DNA of 64,000 bases from contig JAHKAY010000029.1 of assembly GCA_018825785.1 (NCBI GenBank), forward strand, positions 4,143 to 68,142, in the 5' to 3' direction. Both the position numbers and the translations under genes were made by a program. Source of the DNA: Chloroflexota bacterium. GTDB lineage: Bacteria; Chloroflexota; Dehalococcoidia; JACVQG01; JAHKAY01. Each line of letters starts with the position of its first letter. Position 1 is the first letter of the stretch. The notes beneath the pieces were generated by a model. That model had not been told where the DNA came from and ran no database searches. It worked only from the letters and a program-made list of their open reading frames with translations. Below are positions 12,163-64,000 of the stretch, in pieces.

Positions 12163-12567
12163 ATGGTACGCTATAAGCGTGGATGCGCTTATACGGAGCA
12201 AGCAGATATGCGTGAATTGGTGAAGACTTTCAAGGCCCTCTCGGACGAGACCAGGCTCAGGATACTGAACCTGCTCTTGGAGAGGGAATGCTGTGTCTGT
12301 GAGGTAATGCAGGCTTTGGACATCTCGCAGACGAGGGCTTCCAGGAACCTCAGTGCCTTGTATGACGCTGGTTTCTTGAAGCTCAGGAAGGATGGCCTGT
12401 GGTCGCTGTACTCGATAGACCCGGAGGGAATGAAAGCACATCGCTGCGACCTGGTCGGGGCTATGAGGAAGGCGCTAGAGGGCAACGAAGTGATGACCCT
12501 GGACAGGGAGCGCCTCAAGAGGGCTGAGCGCGTTGGGCCTGGTTGTGTCCGGCAGACGGCGAGGTAA
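12163..12567 (+). CDS. arsR: ArsR/SmtB family transcriptional repressor (As(III)-sensing CxC site)
   Basis: HTH ETRLRILNLLLERECCVCEVMQALDISQTRASRNLSALYDAGF with the ECCVCE metal site. An alternative start is the ATG at 12208. Confidence 0.8.
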   Translation: MVRYKRGCAYTEQADMRELVKTFKALSDETRLRILNLLLERECCVCEVMQALDISQTRASRNLSALYDAGFLKLRKDGLWSLYSIDPEGMKAHRCDLVGAMRKALEGNEVMTLDRERLKRAERVGPGCVRQTAR

Positions 12568-12682
12568 GGCCTCTCTTTTTTTGTGCAGGCGCATGCGTTA
12601 GTGAGCATATAGGGAAGGGGCTATCGCAGGGATGGTGGTGCCATGCTTGTTGATGAGACGGCTACGAAAAAGGAGGCACATA

Positions 12683-12847
12683 ATGCTCGAAATAGGGAAG
12701 AAGGCTGTTTCCCTGAACGAGAGCGACCTACTTGAATTAACAAGGATTGTGACCGACGCGGACGAGAGAGCCCCTCGGGTTCCTCAAGAAGGCTATCTAC
12801 GACCGCGTCGTCCGCAGTCAACGAGGCAGGCTGAAGTCACATCTTGA
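12683..12847 (+). CDS. small hypothetical protein (LNESDLLELTRI motif) inside the ars operon
   Basis: 54-aa ORF preceded by the strong SD aaaaaggagg. It shares the xNExDLxELxRIxxDxD motif with the ORF at 3007-3189. Confidence 0.4.
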   Translation: MLEIGKKAVSLNESDLLELTRIVTDADERAPRVPQEGYLRPRRPQSTRQAEVTS

Positions 12848-12931
12848 CGGCGCTAGTCCTGTCGAGGGGTTTATTCAGCGTAACAAACAGTAGCTGAAAG
12901 GCAATCAATTCATAGAAAGGGGGAGCGTGCT

Positions 12932-13705
12932 ATGAAGGGCGACAAAATCAAGAAAGCTGTAAAACATCACTACTCGCGAATAGCAGAGCAGAGCGGGCGG
13001 ACATCATGTTGCGCCACTGGCTGCTGTGGCGAAGTGTCCCCATTGGCTGAAGCCGTGGCTGCGGGTTACAGCAAAGAAGATTTGGAACACATTCCGCAAG
13101 AAGCAATCATGGGGCTGGGGTGCGGGAATCCTGCCGCCTGCGCTGAGTTGAAGCCTGGAGAAACCGTACTCGATTTGGGGTCGGGTGGTGGTATTGACGT
13201 CTTCCTGGCCGCCATCAAAGTGGGACCTCAGGGAAAGGCCATCGGTATTGATATGACGGAGCAGATGGTTGATAAAGCTAACCGTTTAGCCAGAGAAAAG
13301 GGCTACCAGAATGTCGAGTTCCGGCTGGGCGAGATTGAGAAACTTCCCATCTCTGATAGTTCGGTGGATACCATCATCAGCAACTGTGTCATAAACCTAT
13401 CCGCAGATAAGTCCAAGGTCTTTCGCGAGGCATACAGGGTGCTCAAGCCAGGCGGCAAGCTGGTTGTCTCAGATATTGTCTCTGAGCGGCCACTCCCTCG
13501 AAAGATGCAGGATGACCTTGTTTCCTGGTCGCAATGCGTTTCCGGAGCTCTGGAAAGGAACGAATACCTGAGCACAATAGTGAAGGCAGGTTTCAGTGAG
13601 CCGACAATTATCTCTCAGCGCGAGTTCTACGTAGAAACCGGCATGAAGAAATTAGGGAGACTATTCAGCATAATTGTAAGAGCCAACAAGAAGAGCAATG
13701 AATGA
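12932..13705 (+). CDS. arsM: arsenite S-adenosylmethionine methyltransferase
   Basis: SAM motif [11 protein letters not shown] plus the conserved Cys pairs ([16 protein letters not shown]) and a C-terminal Cys, characteristic of ArsM. Confidence 0.85.
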
Positions 13706-14777
13706 GGCTAGTTCTAAAGGCATTGTTGGCAGACTGCCCCTATTAGACCGATTTCTCACCCTCTGGATATTCCTGGCGATGGTCTTGGGGGTAGGACTGG
13801 GATACTTTGTCCCCAGGGTCGCCGACTTCATCAGCTATTTCCAGGTGGATACGACTTCTATCCCAATAGCCATAGGGCTCATCCTGATGATGTATCCCCC
13901 CCTGGCCAAGGTCAGGTATGAGGAATTGGGTAAAGTATTCCGCAACTGGCGTGTGCTGGGGCTGTCGCTGATTCAGAACTGGCTCATCGGCCCGGTGCTC
14001 ATGTTCTTTCTGGCTATCATCTTCCTACGGGCTTATCCCGACTACATGCAGGGACTCATCATGATCGGCTTGGCCCGCTGCATTGCCATGGTCATAGTGT
14101 GGAACGAGCTCGCCAAGGGAGATACAGACTATGCCGCCGGGCTGGTGGCCTTCAACTCTATCTTTCAGATAGTCTTCTACTCTGTGTACGCCTATGTCTT
14201 CATAACAGTGCTGCCGGAATGGTTCGGTCTGGAGGGCACAGCGGTGGACGTTACTATCGGGCAGATAGCTTCGAGTGTGTTCATCTATCTGGGAATCCCT
14301 TTCTTCGGGGGCATGATTACACGCTTTGCCCTTATCAAAAGGAAGGGGCGGCAGTGGTATGAGAGGAAGTTCATTCCCAAGATAAGCCCTGTTACTCTTC
14401 TTGCCCTCCTTTTCACCATCGTGGTCATGTTCTCGCTGAAGGGGGAATTCATCGTGGGTCTGCCCCTGGATGTGGTCCGTATTGCTCTCCCACTCCTCAT
14501 CTACTTCGTCGTCATGTTTCTTGTCTCTTTCTATATGGGCAAGAGGATCGGGGCTGGCTATCCCCGGACAGCAAGCATCGCCTTCACCGCTGCCAGCAAC
14601 AACTTTGAGCTGGCCATTGCCGTGGCGGTAGCAGTGTTCGGCATCGGCTCCGGTCAGGCCTTTGCTGCCGTAATCGGGCCCCTGGTGGAGGTGCCGGTGC
14701 TTGTCAGCCTTGTAAGCGTTGCCCTCGCCTTCCAGCGGAGGTATTTCCAGCCGGCTGCTCAGGGCAAGGAGCGGTAG
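13698..14777 (+). CDS. acr3: arsenite efflux transporter, ACR3 family
   Basis: 359 aa, 10 transmembrane segments, with the ACR3/ArsB (BART superfamily) sequence pattern. Overlaps arsM by 8 nt. Confidence 0.88.
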
Positions 14778-59180: not shown

Positions 59181-60101
59181 ATGATAGCTATCGGTGAAAG
59201 CATCCATGTCATCTCGCCCAGGGTGCGGGTGGCCATTGAGGGGAGGGAGGAGACCTTTCTCCAGGAGCTGGCCCTGAAACAGGTGGCGGGCGGGGCCCAG
59301 ATACTGGACCTGAACATCGGCCCCCAGAAGAAGGCCGGCCCCGAGGTCATGGCCTGGATGGTGGAGATTATCCAGGAGGTGACCGATGTCCGGCTGTCTC
59401 TGGATACCACCAATGCCGCCGCCATCGAGGCGGGGCTGAAGGGGGTGAAGAGGAAGGCCCTCATCAACAGCACCGATGCCACCCCTCAGAGGATAGAGGC
59501 CCTGATGCCCCTGGCCGCCAAATACAATGCCGGCATTATCGCCCTCACCCTGGCCGCCACCGGCCTGCCCACCACCGCCGATGCCCGGATTCAGCTGGCC
59601 TCGGAGTGCATCTTCCCTGCCTGCGAGAGATACGGCCTTCCTATGGAGGACCTCTACCTGGACCCTCTGGTCCTCGCCGTGAACGGGAACCAGGACCAGG
59701 CCCAGGCCACCATTGAGGCGGTGCGCTTTTTCAAGCAGATGGCCGACCCTCCCCCCAAGACCGTCTGCGGTCTCTCCAATATTTCCAACGGCGCCCCCAA
59801 CGAGCTGCGCCCCCTCATCAACCGGGTCTTCCTCCTGATGATGATGGGGGCCGGGCTGGACTCCGCCATCATGGACACCCTGGATGCCGAGACCATGGAG
59901 GCCATCAGGGTGGTGGAGGCCAGGGACACCAGCACCCTCAGAGGCCGGCTTCATCTTGCCATCTACGATGCCTACTGCCGGGGGGAGAGCTTTGACCCCT
60001 CGGGCTTTGACCCCAAGGACCCCCAGACCCGGGATATTCTCCGCACCGTCCAGATGCTGGAGAACCGGTTCCTCTACGCCCACGGCTACCTCAAGGTCTA
60101 G
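59181..60101 (+). CDS. pterin-binding (DHPS-like) methyltransferase, MtrH/AcsE family
   Basis: 306-aa TIM barrel with LDLNIGPQ and CGLSNISNG motifs resembling methyl-H4folate:corrinoid methyltransferases. Confidence 0.55.
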   Translation: MIAIGESIHVISPRVRVAIEGREETFLQELALKQVAGGAQILDLNIGPQKKAGPEVMAWMVEIIQEVTDVRLSLDTTNAAAIEAGLKGVKRKALINSTDATPQRIEALMPLAAKYNAGIIALTLAATGLPTTADARIQLASECIFPACERYGLPMEDLYLDPLVLAVNGNQDQAQATIEAVRFFKQMADPPPKTVCGLSNISNGAPNELRPLINRVFLLMMMGAGLDSAIMDTLDAETMEAIRVVEARDTSTLRGRLHLAIYDAYCRGESFDPSGFDPKDPQTRDILRTVQMLENRFLYAHGYLKV

Positions 60102-60140
60102 GGCCTTGAAATCTTAAACGGTTCCGTGTAAAATAGGGCC

Positions 60141-60362
60141 ATGAAAAGGCCCTGGACGGCGAAGAAGGTCCGGGAGCTGAGGCAGCACCTGGGGCTCACC
60201 CAGGGGGCGATGGCCCAGGAGATGGGGACCCGCCAGCAGACCATCTCGGAGTGGGAAAGAGGGGTATACGTGCCCCGGGGCACCTCCTGCACCCTCCTGA
60301 ACATCATTGCCGAGAGGGCGGGCTTCAAGTATGAGGCCGCCGGACCCCTAGACCATGACTGA
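60141..60362 (+). CDS. XRE-family HTH protein
   Basis: VRELRQHLGLTQGAMAQEMGTRQQTISEWERG helix-turn-helix. Confidence 0.6.
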   Translation: MKRPWTAKKVRELRQHLGLTQGAMAQEMGTRQQTISEWERGVYVPRGTSCTLLNIIAERAGFKYEAAGPLDHD

Positions 60363-60993
60363 GAAGGAGCTGGCCAGGCGCTGGAGGGGGCTGAGGGGGA
60401 GGGAGGTGCTCACCAGCCGGGGGAAGGTGAGGGTGCTCTACCCGGGGAGGGCCAACGGAGGCGGGGGGCCGGACTTCATCGGGGCCGCCCTCCTGGGGGA
60501 GAAGGGCATGGTGCGGGGAGATGTGGAGGTGCACCTCTCCTCCCGGGACTGGCGGGCCCACGGCCACCACCGGGACCCCCACTATGATAATGTGGTCCTC
60601 CACGTGGTTATGGTGGATGATGCCCCCGGCCCTATCCCTTCCCTGGTCCTGCGCCCCCCGGCGGGGGAGGACCCCCTCCCCTGCCCCCGGAATGCCCCCC
60701 CTCCTGTCCTGGTGCGCATGGGGGAAGAGCGCTTTCGGGCCAAGGGGCAGAGGTTGCTGGGGATGGCCGAAGCCCGAGGCCCCGGCCAGGCCCTCTATGA
60801 GGGGGTGATGGAGGCCCTGGGCTACTCCCGAAACCAGGGGCCCATGGTGGAACTGGCCCGCCTTCTGCCCCTGGCGGTCCTGGAGGAGGAAGGCCCTTCA
60901 GCCCTGGAAGGGAGGCTCCGAGAGGGGGCCGGGAAAATCCCGGGCTGGGAGCTATCAGGGGCAAGGCCCACAAATCACCCCTTGCGATGCTGA
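60355..60993 (+). CDS. DUF2851-family protein, apparently C-terminally truncated at the mobile-element junction
   Basis: N-terminal DUF2851 pattern (LTSRGKVRVLYPGRANGGGGPDFIGAAL ... GDVEVHLSSRDWRAHGH), but only 212 aa versus about 400 for the family. Confidence 0.45.
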   Translation: MTEKELARRWRGLRGREVLTSRGKVRVLYPGRANGGGGPDFIGAALLGEKGMVRGDVEVHLSSRDWRAHGHHRDPHYDNVVLHVVMVDDAPGPIPSLVLRPPAGEDPLPCPRNAPPPVLVRMGEERFRAKGQRLLGMAEARGPGQALYEGVMEALGYSRNQGPMVELARLLPLAVLEEEGPSALEGRLREGAGKIPGWELSGARPTNHPLRC

Positions 60994-61062
60994 ACACAAT
61001 CACGTCTTCCCCCTCAGATTTGCGGTAGCCCTCGCTAACCCCCGCCTGGAGGGCATGCCCCG

Positions 61063-61797
61063 GTGAATGTTGGGGATCCCATCCCACAGCCCAAGGCTTA
61101 TCTGGACCCGGAAGAGGTTGAGAAGCTGACAGCCGCTGCCTGCAATCTGAGGGACCGGCTCCTCATCCGCCTCCTGTTCCGCCTGGGATGCCGGGTGTCG
61201 GAGGCCCTCGCCCTCAAGGTGCAGGATGTGGACTTCGTCCGGGGCACTGTCACCATAGAGCACCTCAAAGCTCGGATGCGGCTCTCTTGCCCGAGATGTG
61301 GAGCCAGGCTGGGCAGAACCCATATTTTCTGCCCGAAGTGCGCTACTGGCGTGCAGGAAGCCCAGCATAGCCAGCACGAGCAACGCCGCATGAGGGCCCT
61401 GCCCGTCGATATGGAAACCCTTGAAATGCTCCGGGACTACGTCAGGCGGGACGGCCCCGTCATAAAGGGCGGAAGGCTGCTCATCTTCGGCATCGGGCGT
61501 GGACAGGCCTGGCGGGTGGTGAGGGAGGCTGCCCATAGGGCAGGGCTGCCTCCTCTGGCCAACCCGGGGACGGGCCGGGTTGTTGGCGTGAGCCCCCACC
61601 GCCTCAGGGACGCCTTTGCAGTTCATGCGGTGAAGCTTGATGATTCCGGCGACGGGCTCAGGCTTCTTCAGGAGCATCTAGGACATGCCAACTTCAACAC
61701 TACCGCCAGGTATCGGAAGGTGAGCGGTCAGGAGCACCGACGGTGGTATGAGCGTCTATGGAGCGAAAATGACGCAGGTGAACAACTTTCTAGTTGA
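61063..61797 (+). CDS. tyrosine recombinase/integrase, catalytic-domain-only with inserted Cys4 zinc ribbon
   Basis: R (GCRVSEAL), H-x-x-R (PHRLRDAFAVH), and HLGHANFNTTARY with the catalytic Tyr. CPRCGARLGRTHIFCPKC is inserted between boxes. No N-terminal SAM-like domain. Confidence 0.75.
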   Translation: MNVGDPIPQPKAYLDPEEVEKLTAAACNLRDRLLIRLLFRLGCRVSEALALKVQDVDFVRGTVTIEHLKARMRLSCPRCGARLGRTHIFCPKCATGVQEAQHSQHEQRRMRALPVDMETLEMLRDYVRRDGPVIKGGRLLIFGIGRGQAWRVVREAAHRAGLPPLANPGTGRVVGVSPHRLRDAFAVHAVKLDDSGDGLRLLQEHLGHANFNTTARYRKVSGQEHRRWYERLWSENDAGEQLSS

Positions 61798-61966
61798 TTA
61801 TTTTGGCGAATCTAACGCCGCCACCATACTACCCGAATTACTCGACCGCCTGATTGCCCTTGGCGAGAGGGCAAGACAAATTAGCCATACCCTTGACAAC
61901 AGGGGGCACCGACCGGAGGTAGCGGCAGCGCTAGTAGGATATTTGAAGCGCCAAGCCCATAGATAG
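61748..61966 (+). CDS. hypothetical small protein
   Basis: 72-aa ORF in the low-GC element, overlapping the integrase end. No recognisable motif. Confidence 0.3.
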   Translation: MSVYGAKMTQVNNFLVDYFGESNAATILPELLDRLIALGERARQISHTLDNRGHRPEVAAALVGYLKRQAHR

Positions 61967-62099
61967 GCTGGTGCCTTCTCTTTCTTAACAAGGAGGGCTG
62001 GATGAATAAGGAGTGAGGATAATAACGAAATAGCCGGAGGCCAAGGCTAGTCTCCGGTTAAAGAAAAGAAGTAAGAAATACGATGAGGAGGAGATTGAA

Positions 62100-62903
62100 A
62101 TGGTTACGTGCGGACTTTGTGGCAAACAAGTCAGGACTGCGCAGGGACTGAGAGGTCATAGAACCTTCGTTCATGGAACTGCCGGTAGTACTCAGCAGCC
62201 AGTTGCTCGACTAGCTACTGAGCAGCAAGTGAGTTTACTGGAGGACAGACTCCAGCAGCTCGAACGAGTTACTGGACTACGTGAGGCAGACTCAGGTTTC
62301 TCACTGAGTGATACTGAGCCACTCACTGACAGACTAACTAATATTGCTGAGCAGGTGACTAAGCTCGGGGATGCCGTCGGTAAGCTCAGTGACATAGTCA
62401 GCAAACTGAGTGGAGACGTAGAACTGGCGAAGGCCGATAGGCTGACGGTAGGCGAATTGAGTCACAAGTTGAAGGAAGCTCAAAACAGCCTTGCTGGTGT
62501 TGTTGATAACCGTTGTGATGCCTTCAACAAGAACTTCGAGGTTCACCAGTCTAAGATTGACGGAGTTCAAGGGCTGATTGAAGATCTTGCTGAAGGTCTG
62601 AATGAGATCAAGACAAAGCTAACCACACATGGGCACGGCGGTCTGAGTCTAATACCACAGTTGAGCAGTAGACTGCAACAGGTTGGTGAAGAGATAGCGG
62701 GGCTGCATCCGGGGGTTGCTAAAGCTCAAGCCCTTGCTGTTCGTAGGCCAACCGATGACTTTGAGAAACTAGAACTGGCTAATGGGTCTAAGCATACTTT
62801 TCGGGTATATAAGGGCAAAAGGGGATTGTCTAACCCGCATCGAGTCAGCATAGACCCGTTCTTTGGTGATAAGTATGTGGACTTGGCCGAGCCTGAAGAT
62901 TAG
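62100..62903 (+). CDS. C2H2 zinc-finger plus coiled-coil protein (element cargo)
   Basis: N-terminal CGLCGKQVRTAQGLRGHRTFVH (C-x2-C-x12-H-x4-H), followed by about 180 aa of heptad-like repeats. Low-GC codon usage. Confidence 0.6.
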   Translation: MVTCGLCGKQVRTAQGLRGHRTFVHGTAGSTQQPVARLATEQQVSLLEDRLQQLERVTGLREADSGFSLSDTEPLTDRLTNIAEQVTKLGDAVGKLSDIVSKLSGDVELAKADRLTVGELSHKLKEAQNSLAGVVDNRCDAFNKNFEVHQSKIDGVQGLIEDLAEGLNEIKTKLTTHGHGGLSLIPQLSSRLQQVGEEIAGLHPGVAKAQALAVRRPTDDFEKLELANGSKHTFRVYKGKRGLSNPHRVSIDPFFGDKYVDLAEPED

Positions 62904-63159
62904 ACAATGGCTGTCGTCTGTATCACTAGACCAGCCCGCGGATTTGGAAAGGGCACAACAATGTCTGTATCAGCGGCCACCATTGAACCAAATGTCCAAT
63001 CGTTGCGCGCGCGGGTTTCCAACAGAACCCGCTCTAAACTACCTGTCCAGATTTCGGGGACCCTCTCACTGTGCCGACCGCCGGGGAAACGCCGCCCAAT
63101 AACTCCAGCAGAGTCCGCAGTATCCGGCAACTATTCTTGCTGGACCCCTTGTCCGCCCC

Positions 63160-64000
63160 TCATCGACCGGAAAGCAAGATCCCCTTCAGGTACTCTACAA
63201 AGTTCACTCGTCGAAAGGCGAGAAGTTCGCGTTGCGTATTTGCCACAGCCCATTCCTTTTCAGGTATCTGCCTTCTCATTTCGCCTATCTGGCGCTCAAG
63301 TGGCCGGCGTTTCTTTGCCAACTGCTCTCTGGCGCACTGTAACCGCCTAACCAGAGCGGCGCGCTCTTGGCTGGACTTCTGCCGAACGCTGTCCTTCTTT
63401 TGCTCCTCACCCTCCCTGACAACGACCTCTTCCTGATCCAGTGCAACACGGTCACGTTCATACCGTGACTCAATTGCAGACTGCTGTGCGTGAGGCAAAG
63501 AGTTGGGGATACTGCTTCGCAGTTGAGAGTCTATATGCCTACGCCACGCCAACAGAAGTGCCGCCTTCTTTGGGCCAATGCCCTCCACGTGCACGTTCCC
63601 TCGCCCTGGCACTTCGATGTAGGCAACCTGCTGCCAATACCGGCCCCACCCCGTCTGAGTAACGCGAACATTCGCGATGTCTGCGGCGCTTCTGACTCCT
63701 GCGGAAGAAAGGCGCTTCTTCATTGTCGCTCCGATGCCAGTGATCGCCGCACTGGAAAGGTAATACTGGGCAAGACGGCTGCTGACGTGCTGGTTCTGAA
63801 GACTGCGCAGCGTCCGGGCTAGCTCAGTCGTCTGGGACCGCACGAGAGCGTGTCGGCGCTGGTTCACACTGGCGAGAGCCTGCTGCAGGTTCAGGTCAAC
63901 AGCTTCAAGCTCCTCCCTTTCACTCTTCGCCGACTCAGCCTGTCTAGCTTTGGAGGTGGTCACCTCCTTGCCTTCGTCTAGGGTCAGTTCTTGGAGTTCC
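63160..64000 (-). CDS. coiled-coil protein with tandem helix-hairpin-helix motifs (partial; N-terminus beyond the window)
   Basis: ITGIGATMKKRLSSAGVRSAADIA and VEGIGPKKAALLLAW HhH motifs flanked by coiled-coil. The frame stays open to the window end. Confidence 0.5.
   Translation of the reverse strand, partial: ELQELTLDEGKEVTTSKARQAESAKSEREELEAVDLNLQQALASVNQRRHALVRSQTTELARTLRSLQNQHVSSRLAQYYLSSAAITGIGATMKKRLSSAGVRSAADIANVRVTQTGWGRYWQQVAYIEVPGRGNVHVEGIGPKKAALLLAWRRHIDSQLRSSIPNSLPHAQQSAIESRYERDRVALDQEEVVVREGEEQKKDSVRQKSSQERAALVRRLQCAREQLAKKRRPLERQIGEMRRQIPEKEWAVANTQRELLAFRRVNFVEYLKGILLSGR

What the first reader, a model, noticed from the sequence alone, without database searches (positions are those of the whole stretch)
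60355..64000. Lower-GC mobile element with a zinc-ribbon-bearing minimal integrase and C2H2 zinc-finger/coiled-coil and tandem-HhH/coiled-coil cargo; apparently truncates a DUF2851 gene
Domain breakdown: the DUF2851 ORF ends at 212 aa where the family is about 400 aa. The integrase, 70 nt downstream, lacks any N-terminal arm or SAM-like domain and carries a CPRCGARLGRTHIFCPKC ribbon (nt 61291-61344) between catalytic boxes. The cargo includes a canonical eukaryote-style C2H2 finger (CGLCGKQVRTAQGLRGHRTFVH, nt 62109-62174) fused to about 180 aa of heptad repeats. A convergent gene encodes a long coiled-coil with two HhH DNA-binding motifs and runs off the window. No tRNA is present at the junction. 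The combination does not match standard prophage, ICE or IS layouts.
Basis: partly seen in the sequence, partly recalled or inferred. Interest (0 to 1): 0.58.

Follow-up and report, generated by a model that had tools for sequence, protein, structure and literature searches.

The report
Orphan zinc-ribbon recombinase bordering defence island
The region is the left edge of a foreign island of about 15 kb, carrying anti-phage genes, that cuts a Chloroflexota gene in half; it is an ordinary kind of genomic island, but it is bordered by an unusually small zinc-ribbon tyrosine recombinase from a very large family that I did not find described.

Summary
The DUF2851 ORF (60355-60993) matches its 329-335 aa orthologues (91-92% identity) only up to residue 210. 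The DNA breakpoint is at 60984/60985.

A 244-aa tyrosine recombinase follows (61063-61797). It has a catalytic domain only, with a CxxC...CxxC ribbon inserted after the catalytic Lys. GC then drops from 0.63 to 0.50.

A near-identical contig extends the window. The low-GC block is about 15 kb of proteins seen nowhere else. It includes a complete TerY-P triad, an SbcCD-like pair and a PD-lambda-3_B-like protein. The "HhH/coiled-coil" gene is the C-terminal 40% of the 703-aa TerY-P kinase. The C2H2/coiled-coil protein belongs to a real, uncharacterised family.

In more than 80 related loci this recombinase is a second recombinase. It sits 1.3-4.5 kb inside tRNA-integrated elements that carry another integrase, and it is usually followed by a conserved ~170-aa partner. 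The window copy lacks the tRNA, the primary integrase and the partner. No DUF2851 3' half and no direct repeat was found.

This is therefore an orphan recombinase at a rearranged, probably immobile defence island. The island is an ordinary kind; the recombinase family is the more interesting part.

The parts
60141..60362 (+). Host HTH_3 (Xre-type) regulator gene. It overlaps the DUF2851 start by 8 nt and is the conserved operon partner of DUF2851.
   Evidence: Pfam HTH_3 E 4.8e-10. The HTH-DUF2851 pair is conserved in relatives L004-L010.
60355..60993 (+). Truncated DUF2851 gene. Host sequence runs to 60984 (codon 210). The last 9 nt (Arg, Cys, stop) come from the foreign DNA.
60983..60987 (.). 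Left junction between host DNA and the recombinase module.
   Evidence: Homology to the empty sites L004 and L005 ends at ~60984. Homology to the paralogous recombinase locus L011 starts at 60987.
60985..61062 (+). Conserved leader upstream of the recombinase gene. It contains the in-frame stop at 61036-61038.
   Evidence: 77% identical to L011 from 60987. 93.5% identical to L021 from 61011. Sequence read.
61063..61797 (+). Compact tyrosine recombinase with a catalytic domain only. R44, K69, H179, R182, H208 and Y217 are invariant in the family.
61288..61341 (+). Zinc ribbon (CPRC...CPKC) inserted directly after the catalytic-Lys strand.
   Evidence: Pfam Zn_Ribbon_1 E 4.9e-4. The CxxC..CxxC motif is present in 120 of 120 best homologues.
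61748..61966 (+). 72-aa ORF, doubtful as a gene.
   Evidence: No family hit. The homologous stretch in L104 is interrupted by a frame shift and a stop.
62100..62903 (+). C2H2 zinc finger (62109-62174), then a coiled coil, then a conserved C-terminal beta domain. Function unknown.
   Evidence: 157 family clusters. Alignment A5. 13 of 19 members hit zf-C2H2_6. AF2 model with pLDDT 77.9 shows a beta-beta-alpha finger. A GAGGAGGAG Shine-Dalgarno sequence lies before the ATG.
63160..64000 (-). C-terminal 279 codons (coiled coil, two HhH motifs, coiled coil) of the 703-aa TerY-P-type Ser/Thr kinase. The gene starts beyond the window.
61798..64000 (.). Start of the low-GC cargo, which continues for about 12 kb beyond the window to the equivalent of about 76.0-76.4 kb.

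Best explanation
Window 60985-64000 is the left 3 kb of a horizontally acquired defence island of about 15 kb. The host is an uncultivated Chloroflexota bacterium.

The island is fused to codon 210 of the host DUF2851 gene. Its left border is the leader and gene of a compact tyrosine recombinase that has a catalytic domain only and a zinc ribbon inserted next to the catalytic lysine.

In its usual setting this recombinase is the second recombinase of elements that integrate at tRNA genes, and it works beside a conserved ~170-aa partner (called c1 here). It probably acts as a resolvase-type or accessory recombinase on a site near its own gene.

Here it is an orphan. The junction with DUF2851 was most likely made by a single recombination event at or next to its leader: either an illegitimate site-specific exchange, or a deletion or inversion. 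That event also removed or relocated the DUF2851 3' half and left the island fixed in place.

The cargo is as follows:
- a C2H2/coiled-coil DNA-binding protein of unknown role;
- a complete TerY-P triad, in which the kinase carries a transmembrane/coiled-coil/HhH tail instead of an OB fold;
- an SbcCD-like ATPase/nuclease pair;
- a PD-lambda-3_B-like TIGR02391 protein;
- a MUG/UDG-like glycosylase;
- several unknown proteins.

Shown: the breakpoint, the composition jump, the gene content, the family contexts, and the absence of the island at this site in relatives. Inferred: who made the junction, the role of the recombinase, and that the island is immobile.
For: Breakpoint and empty sites. 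Orthologous DUF2851 genes are intact (329-335 aa) in L004, L005 and L006, and host homology stops at 60984.

The recombinase module starts at the breakpoint. The paralogue locus L011, from the same MAG, aligns from 60987 to 61749. L021 aligns from 61011 to 61764 at 93.5% identity with unrelated flanks on both sides.

Foreign composition.

Island extent. L001 and L013 are identical to the window over 60355-64000. Every protein from the zinc-finger gene to the 221-aa gene is a singleton cluster, whereas the SDR and PHA genes beyond it have close relatives elsewhere. Homology to the relative L016 ends 14 nt upstream of the SDR start.

Defence content. PADLOC gives TerY 4e-108, PP2C 3.9e-29, STK 1.4e-83 and PD-Lambda-3_B 4.7e-87. 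The description of TerY-P comes from PMC10542128.

Canonical family layout:
- 20 of 20 tRNAs lie 1.3-4.5 kb upstream of the zinc-ribbon recombinase.
- A second recombinase is present in 30 of 36 loci that have enough upstream sequence.
- c1 is present in 43 of 52 loci that have enough downstream sequence.

None of these features is present in the window, L001, L013 or L011. The same junction was assembled independently in two NCBI MAGs and two Logan per-run assemblies.
Against: - No recombination site has been identified.
- No direct repeat of 9 nt or more links the two island borders.
- The right border is inferred only from cluster sizes and from one related contig.
- The flank beyond the right border (the PHA genes) is also lower in GC than the left flank (0.55), so the foreign block could be larger.
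- 7.2 kb of the extending contig, and the rest of the genome, could not be read. A DUF2851 3' half may exist there.
- The recombinase has a host-like GC (0.62) and the cargo does not, so they may have separate histories.
- A contig from another sample (L104) keeps the recombinase 3' end and the zinc-finger gene together at 77% identity. This argues that at least these two travel together, and that the recombinase may after all serve this module.
Confidence: 0.6

Rival explanations
1. This is a classical integrative island. The zinc-ribbon recombinase is its own integrase. It inserted a circular element of about 15 kb (or larger) into an attB inside DUF2851, and the other end simply lies beyond the DNA I could read, or has since decayed.
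For: The recombinase sits 78 nt from the junction and reads inward. All catalytic residues are intact. The site is empty in relatives. The recombinase and zinc-finger gene are linked in a second sample. There is loose similarity between host ATCATCCCTTTG and the sequence preceding the leader in L011, ATCGTCCCAGG.
Against: In 30 of 36 family loci another integrase next to a tRNA does the integrating. The usual partner c1 is absent. There is no DUF2851 3' half within 21 kb and no direct repeat. The right flank is not the one seen in relatives.
Confidence: 0.22
2. The recombinase gene and the low-GC cargo arrived separately. A small recombinase module (about 0.8 kb) is resident in this lineage, and cargo was later captured or swapped at a hot spot at its 3' end, in a cassette-like or integron-like way.
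For: There is a GC and GC3 step between the recombinase (0.62 / 0.70) and the cargo (0.50-0.56 / 0.46-0.65). Homology to L021 and L011 ends at 61749-61764, inside the last 50 nt of the gene, and different DNA follows in each locus. The cargo is absent from more than 80 other family loci.
Against: L104 continues from the recombinase 3' end into the zinc-finger gene. No repeated cassette sites were found. The variable C-terminal tail may simply be unconstrained sequence.
Confidence: 0.12
3. The junction is an assembly chimera, or the region is a prophage remnant.
For: The source genomes are MAGs. Two family members lie on contigs called viral in IMG/VR.
Against: The same junction is present in four assemblies, including per-run Logan contigs. 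In the island, PHROGs hits are limited to the recombinase and one protein of unknown function. There are no capsid, tail or terminase genes. The recombinase has no match in 50,697 phage or 72,556 plasmid records.
Confidence: 0.04

Closest known systems
Xer-type 'simple' tyrosine recombinases (archaeal XerA, PDB 4a8e and 5hxy; XerD; XerH)
   Same: These are the best sequence and fold matches to the catalytic domain, and the RKHRH-Y catalytic set is shared.
   Different: There is no core-binding domain: profile position 6 aligns to XerA residue 105. A zinc ribbon is inserted after the catalytic-Lys strand. The NCBIfam XerA score is 95.6, against a cut-off of 220. There are several paralogues per genome, and they sit in mobile-element contexts. 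The 2021 classification of tyrosine recombinases defines even 'simple' members as core-binding plus catalytic domain, and it never mentions zinc (PMC8138268).
Small tyrosine DNA invertases (FimB/FimE type, about 200 aa)
   Same: They are similarly small. There is a weak NCBIfam hit (NF007371, E 1.5e-13).
   Different: The score is far below the cut-off (50.7 against 222). No invertible segment or flanking inverted repeats were found. FimB/FimE have no zinc ribbon (from my own knowledge).
Accessory or second recombinases of mobile elements (Cre/loxP of P1, and TnpS-TnpT of Tn4651-type transposons; from my own knowledge)
   Same: A tyrosine recombinase that is not the integrase, encoded inside the element. 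In the TnpS/TnpT case it is paired with a separate accessory protein, as this recombinase is with c1.
   Different: There is no sequence relationship to TnpT or Cre accessory functions. c1 has no Pfam or PDB match. The role is inferred from gene order only.
TerY-P triad (vWA TerY, PP2C phosphatase, Ser/Thr kinase)
   Same: All three genes are present, adjacent and co-directional, with strong PADLOC matches. The triad is described as a phosphorylation switch linked to DNA-processing systems, and as a stand-alone anti-phage system (PMC10542128).
   Different: The kinase tail is a transmembrane segment, a coiled coil and two HhH motifs, rather than an OB fold or a zinc ribbon. This tail variant is itself widespread, with hundreds of full-length homologues.
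Defence islands and integrase-bordered genomic islands inserted in protein-coding genes (for example SXT in prfC, cited in PMC8138268)
   Same: Foreign composition, a recombinase at one border, stacked defence systems, and an empty site in relatives.
   Different: There is no detectable att repeat, no restored or recoverable 3' half of the target gene, and the bordering recombinase is not of an integrase type with DNA-binding arms.

Membership tests
Tyrosine recombinase superfamily (PF00589) | Catalytic domain with the R-K-H-R-H/W pentad and the Tyr nucleophile | tested here: met
   PF00589 E 6.6e-21. R44, K69, H179, R182, H208 and Y217 are invariant in 34 aligned members. PDB matches are XerA and XerD.
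Simple tyrosine recombinases / Xer (core-binding + catalytic domain) | N-terminal core-binding (SAM-like) domain | tested here: not met
   The catalytic domain starts at residue ~13. An in-frame TAA lies 27 nt upstream of the start. Profile position 6 equals XerA residue 105. All 120 best homologues are 226-269 aa.
Simple tyrosine recombinases / Xer (core-binding + catalytic domain) | Score above the curated family threshold | tested here: not met
   NCBIfam XerA scores 95.6 bits against a cut-off of 220. XerC and XerD score about 70 against about 330.
Integrase of an integrative element (functional sense) | Element flanked by att sites (a direct repeat of the core) with the target sequence split between the two ends | tested here: not met
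   No shared word of 9 nt or more between the left junction and the right border. No DUF2851 3' half in the window, L001 or L013. 7.2 kb of the contig and the rest of the genome were not readable.
Integrase of an integrative element (functional sense) | Occupied site here versus empty site in close relatives | tested here: met
   L004, L005 and L006 carry an intact DUF2851 gene followed by other genes.
Integrase of an integrative element (functional sense) | The recombinase is the element's only or border recombinase in related elements | tested here: not met
   30 of 36 related loci have another Tyr or Ser recombinase between a tRNA and this recombinase.
TerY-P defence system | Adjacent TerY (vWA), PP2C phosphatase and Ser/Thr kinase genes | tested here: met
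   PADLOC gives TerY 4e-108, PP2C 3.9e-29 and STK_OB 1.4e-83. The genes are at L001 11364-15170, all on one strand. Only the kinase tail lies inside the window.
TerY-P defence system | Kinase C-terminal OB fold, as in the experimentally tested systems | tested here: not met
   The PADLOC match covers profile positions 1-291 of 562 only. The tail has a transmembrane segment, a coiled coil and HHH_5.
TerY-P defence system | Protects against phage | not testable with these tools
   This needs an infection assay.
Classical C2H2 zinc finger | C-x2-4-C-x12-H-x3-5-H with a hydrophobic core, and a beta-beta-alpha fold | tested here: met
   The motif is at 62109-62174. C4, C7 and H20 are at least 90% conserved. 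13 of 19 members hit PF13912. The AF2 model shows strands at 2-3 and 10-11 and a helix at 14-24, with pLDDT 93. The window protein alone is below Pfam reporting level.
DUF2851 (PF11013) | Full-length match to the family | tested here: not met
   Only residues 1-210 of 329-335 are present.
Prophage | Virion or packaging genes | tested here: not met
   None found by Pfam or PHROGs in the 15 kb.
ICE / conjugative element | Relaxase, coupling protein or type IV secretion genes | tested here: not met
   None among the called genes of L001 and L013.
IS / transposon | Terminal inverted repeats and target-site duplication | tested here: not met
   Searches found none at the borders.

The most novel reading that the evidence does not exclude
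The zinc-ribbon recombinase, which has a catalytic domain only, may form a previously undescribed two-protein tyrosine recombination system with its separately encoded ~170-aa partner c1. In that system DNA recognition would be supplied by the inserted ribbon and by c1, instead of by a core-binding domain. The system would serve a very abundant family of tRNA-integrating, self-replicating elements in uncultivated sediment bacteria. Orphan copies such as this one could still catalyse chromosomal rearrangements or cargo exchange at sites in their leader and 3' end.
Probability: 0.25. Interest if true: 0.6.

Novelty: new variant of a known kind. Interest (0 to 1): 0.4.

Why it matters
The locus as a whole is an ordinary case: a defence island that disrupts a gene of unknown function.

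Two by-products are worth more attention.

First, there is a very large and strongly conserved family of tyrosine recombinases that lack any core-binding domain, carry a zinc ribbon beside the catalytic lysine, and are coupled to a conserved partner gene. The best 120 homologues share 62-90% identity. The family is absent from 50,697 phage and 72,556 plasmid records, and its architecture is not covered by the 2021 classification of tyrosine recombinases. If it is active, it would be the smallest known architecture for this enzyme class, and it would be a marker for an abundant, unstudied group of integrative elements.

Second, there is a conserved bacterial family with a classical C2H2 finger fused to a coiled coil and a novel beta domain. 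One member has the finger replaced by a ribbon-helix-helix domain. This family has no known function.

Tried and rejected
- SSV-type split integrase (attP inside the int gene, with the N-terminal half at the far end). Rejected because the frame is closed by TAA at 61036-61038, 50 nt inside the junction, and because all homologues are equally short.
- Search for the DUF2851 3' half. tblastn against the window and all fetched loci found nothing. The single genome-contig scan found only 37-39% relatives.
- Direct or inverted repeats between the two island borders. None of 9 nt or more.
- The zinc-finger protein as a fixed partner of the recombinase. It is absent from more than 80 family loci and is found elsewhere without the recombinase. 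It is, however, linked once more in L104.
- The zinc-finger protein in viral contigs. None found.
- Foldseek of the zinc-finger model against the PDB. Nothing below E 0.4.
- afdb50 was unavailable.
- Profile of c1 against Pfam and the PDB. Nothing significant; the best match is a PadR-like helix at E 0.42.
- Rfam on 59500-64000. Only chance-level hits.
- Promoter and terminator scan. Nothing above the shuffled expectation.
- The AF2 model of the recombinase was only moderate (pLDDT 63.8, with a poor C-terminal third), so the architecture rests on sequence evidence.
- The 72-aa ORF is not conserved as an ORF in L104.
- A look-up of the exact NCBI protein P0073 failed.

Full report
**What is in the window.** ORF listing and Pfam give the following genes on the + strand:
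- an Xre-type HTH gene (60141-60362);
- a DUF2851 ORF of 212 aa (60355-60993);
- a 244-aa PF00589 protein (61063-61797);
- a 72-aa ORF (61748-61966);
- a 267-aa ORF (62100-62903).

A convergent ORF runs on the - strand from 63160 and is open to the window end. The C2H2 motif is exactly at 62109-62174. The window has no tRNA, and Rfam finds nothing credible in 59500-64000.

GC is 0.633 ± 0.037 over 1-60985. It is 0.62 in the recombinase, 0.50 in 61798-62903 and 0.57 in the convergent gene. GC3 is 0.82-0.86 in host genes, 0.70 in the recombinase and 0.46 in the zinc-finger gene.

**DUF2851 really is cut.** The closest homologues (91-92% identity) are 329-335 aa. The window protein aligns to their residues 1-210 and then ends in Arg-Cys-stop. 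The shorter hits are contig-end fragments that read through residue 210 normally. Three contigs from related organisms (L004, L005, L006) carry the same upstream genes (TilS, TsaD, CNNM, DUF2344, His_Phos, Pterin_bind, HTH), followed by an intact DUF2851 and then CooC/RACo/CdhD genes. The DNA alignment places the loss of homology at 60984/60985.

**Extending beyond the window.** An exact-protein look-up found a near-identical contig, GCA_043814405.1 JBDRKB010000017.1. It has 21 mismatches in 12.2 kb and none in 60355-64000. A second look-up extended it further. The window itself comes from a 104,463-bp contig of an NCBI 'Chloroflexi bacterium' MAG with locus tags KJ624_.

The convergent gene is 703 aa. 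It has an N-terminal protein-kinase domain, a hydrophobic segment, a coiled coil, HhH motifs and a second coiled coil. Behind it on the same strand lie:
- a PP2C phosphatase;
- a vWA protein;
- an 844-aa AAA_23 (SbcC/Rad50-like) ATPase;
- a Metallophos (SbcD/Mre11-like) protein;
- a TIGR02391 protein;
- a 305-aa unknown protein;
- a MUG/UDG-like glycosylase;
- three further unknown proteins (78, 425 and 221 aa).

PADLOC assigns TerY (4e-108), PP2C (3.9e-29) and the kinase (STK_OB, 1.4e-83, kinase part only). It assigns the TIGR02391 protein to PD-Lambda-3_B (4.7e-87). The literature describes TerY-P as a vWA/PP2C/kinase triad linked to DNA-processing systems. It has been shown to act as an anti-phage system when the kinase carries an OB fold (PMC10542128). 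PD-lambda-3 is used as an abortive-infection control in PMC13190303. The kinase architecture found here (about 700 aa with an HhH tail) has hundreds of full-length homologues in many phyla.

**Extent of the island.** All proteins from the zinc-finger gene to the 221-aa gene are singleton clusters at 90% identity and are known only from these MAGs and their source runs. The next genes (two SDRs, PhaC, PhaE, PadR, thiolase) have close relatives in other samples. Homology to a related JGI contig (L016) ends 14 nt upstream of the first SDR gene. This puts the right border at the equivalent of window positions 76.0-76.4 kb, which makes the island about 15 kb.

The border is provisional, for three reasons:
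- The right flank also has lower GC (0.55).
- Its gene order differs from L016 and includes an inverted duplicate SDR.
- It is not what follows DUF2851 in relatives.

No DUF2851 3' half occurs in the window or in the 21 kb to the right. No word of 9 nt or more is shared between the two borders. The last 7.2 kb of the contig could not be fetched.

**The recombinase.** It has the full catalytic set: R44, K69, H179, R182, H208 and Y217 are invariant in 34 aligned members. It has no core-binding domain. Three observations support this:
- The catalytic domain begins at residue ~13.
- A TAA at 61036-61038 closes the frame upstream.
- A family profile aligns from its position 6 to residue 105 of Pyrococcus XerA.

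The closest structures are XerA, XerD, XerH and IntI. The AF2 model was only moderate. NCBIfam Xer models score far below their cut-offs. The four ribbon cysteines are invariant and sit directly after the strand that carries the catalytic Lys.

The family is very large. All of the best 120 hits are 226-269 aa, share 62-90% identity and have the CxxC...CxxC motif. In the metagenome scan, 473 of 600 candidate stretches encode a relative. By contrast there is no hit at E ≤ 1e-10 in 50,697 phage or 72,556 plasmid records. The 2021 classification of tyrosine recombinases defines its simplest class as core-binding plus catalytic domain and never mentions zinc (PMC8138268). A full-text search for 'tyrosine recombinase' together with 'zinc ribbon' found nothing relevant.

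**What the family normally does.** This changes the interpretation. I clustered the neighbours in 85 loci. The canonical order is:
1. a tRNA gene;
2. a primary recombinase, either a full-length tyrosine integrase or a large serine recombinase whose ORF overlaps the tRNA 3' end;
3. small HTH or unknown genes;
4. the zinc-ribbon recombinase;
5. a ~170-aa protein, c1 (RGGFLRPFGCGWFIREYLLG...; no Pfam or PDB match);
6. a sigma-r4/HTH-like protein;
7. a DnaN-like clamp.

The counts are as follows:
- All 20 tRNAs found lie 1.3-4.5 kb upstream of the zinc-ribbon recombinase.
- 30 of 36 loci with enough upstream sequence have the second recombinase.
- 43 of 52 loci with enough downstream sequence have c1.

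In its usual home, therefore, the zinc-ribbon enzyme is most likely not the chromosomal integrase. It is more likely an accessory or resolvase-type recombinase that works with c1. This is an inference from gene order.

The window copy has no tRNA, no primary recombinase and no c1 anywhere in the 64 kb or in the extension. A 75%-identical paralogue in the same MAG (L011) keeps the upstream serine recombinase and the 305-aa gene, but it also lacks c1.

**The junction.** Homology between the window and L011 runs from 60987 to 61749. It therefore starts within 2-3 nt of the DUF2851 breakpoint and ends about 50 nt before the stop codon. The closest relative, L021 (93.5% DNA identity), shares only 61011-61764, and its flanks on both sides are unrelated: an aroQ gene lies upstream. 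The recombinase gene with 50-76 nt of leader therefore behaves as a module whose two edges are recombination break points.

A fourth contig from another sample (L104) is 77% identical to 61639-62953. It links the recombinase 3' end to the zinc-finger gene. The simplest reading is that one recombination event at or next to the leader fused this module and the cargo to its right onto codon 210 of DUF2851. The event could have been an illegitimate site-specific exchange, or a deletion or inversion. The missing 3' half, the non-syntenic right flank and the lack of repeats all favour a rearrangement over a clean, reversible insertion, but I cannot exclude the latter.

Because the recombinase gene lies 70 nt downstream of the truncated ORF on the same strand, it may now be read through from the HTH-DUF2851 operon. 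This is also an inference.

**The zinc-finger protein.** An exhaustive HMMER search found 157 clusters (at 50% identity) with E ≤ 1e-3. Many are full-length from residue 1. The alignment shows three parts:
- a conserved N-terminal CxxC-x12-H-x4-H motif;
- a variable coiled coil;
- a conserved C-terminal block (PTG..DGR.H.F.EYKS..GL..PHR..D..LG.RWVDLAEPED).

Thirteen of 19 members hit PF13912 zf-C2H2_6. One member has a ribbon-helix-helix domain in place of the finger, which argues for a DNA-binding head. AF2 (pLDDT 77.9) gives a beta-beta-alpha finger, a helix of about 140 residues and a four-stranded beta domain. Foldseek against the PDB finds nothing.

The ATG at 62100 is preceded by GAGGAGGAG, and homologues start at the same residue. 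The 182-aa version in the NCBI annotation therefore loses the finger.

Contexts vary. The gene is stand-alone between comEC and a DUF6504/dnaE2 pair in one case. In another it lies beside a full-length integrase and an AAA_23 ATPase. It is absent from IMG/VR by the pattern used. Its function remains unknown. A coiled-coil DNA-binding regulator or sensor is the most I can infer.

**Verdict.** The locus is a defence island bordered by an orphan, unusually compact recombinase and fused to a truncated host gene. As an island it is a known kind. The recombinase architecture and its partner gene are a variant that I could not find described, and they are the part worth following up.

Noticed in passing
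window 12163-14777: A low-GC patch (0.51-0.57, against a window mean of 0.63) holds an ArsR-type regulator, an ArsM-like methyltransferase and an ACR3-type arsenite efflux gene. It is probably a separately acquired arsenic-resistance operon.
   Followed up: partly
L004 6949-10008: In a relative with an intact DUF2851, a DDE transposase fragment, a DarT/Macro (DarTG-like) pair and an extra Macro gene sit between Pterin_bind and HTH-DUF2851. This neighbourhood appears to be a recurrent insertion hot spot.
   Followed up: no
L007-L010 and window 60141-60993: The small HTH_3 gene and DUF2851 are adjacent, with overlapping ends, across distant Dehalococcoidia/Chloroflexi genomes. This suggests a conserved two-gene operon of unknown function.
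   Followed up: partly
L013 3625-4419 (+) and 4594-5388 (-): Two SDR genes in inverted orientation are both homologous to a single SDR gene of the relative L016 (83% and 88% DNA identity). They lie directly at the inferred right border of the island and may be a sign of rearrangement there.
   Followed up: partly
L019 6642-9858: tRNA-Lys is followed by three tandem tyrosine recombinases (335 aa, the 229-aa zinc-ribbon type, and 210 aa) and c1, reminiscent of recombinase-in-trio elements. The cargo includes Prok_Ub, Prok-E2 and ThiF genes.
   Followed up: no
L066 51-1658, L079 12-1655, L095 1083-2709, L101 1-1677: In canonical elements the large serine recombinase ORF overlaps the 3' end of the adjacent tRNA gene. 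The attachment site presumably lies inside both.
   Followed up: no
window 61011-61029 and 61135-61153: A 19-nt inverted repeat (79% complementary) pairs the conserved leader with codons 25-30 of the recombinase. It is predicted to pair in the window and in L021, but not in the minimum-energy fold of L011. It could be regulatory or chance.
   Followed up: partly
window 62100-62903: The public annotation (KJ624_04690, 182 aa) starts about 255 nt too late and omits the C2H2 finger.
   Followed up: yes
L017 8662-8913 and L018: On an 836-kb chromosomal contig the zinc-ribbon recombinase is also an orphan, with only an 83-aa remnant of c1. The gene downstream differs between two assemblies (an ABC2 membrane gene in one, a 141-aa ORF in the other). 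This is another hint that DNA next to this gene is unstable.
   Followed up: no
window 63160-64000 (-): The ORF lister reports this ORF as 63160-63963 with a GTG start, although the frame stays open to the window end. The real start is 1.3 kb beyond the window.
   Followed up: yes
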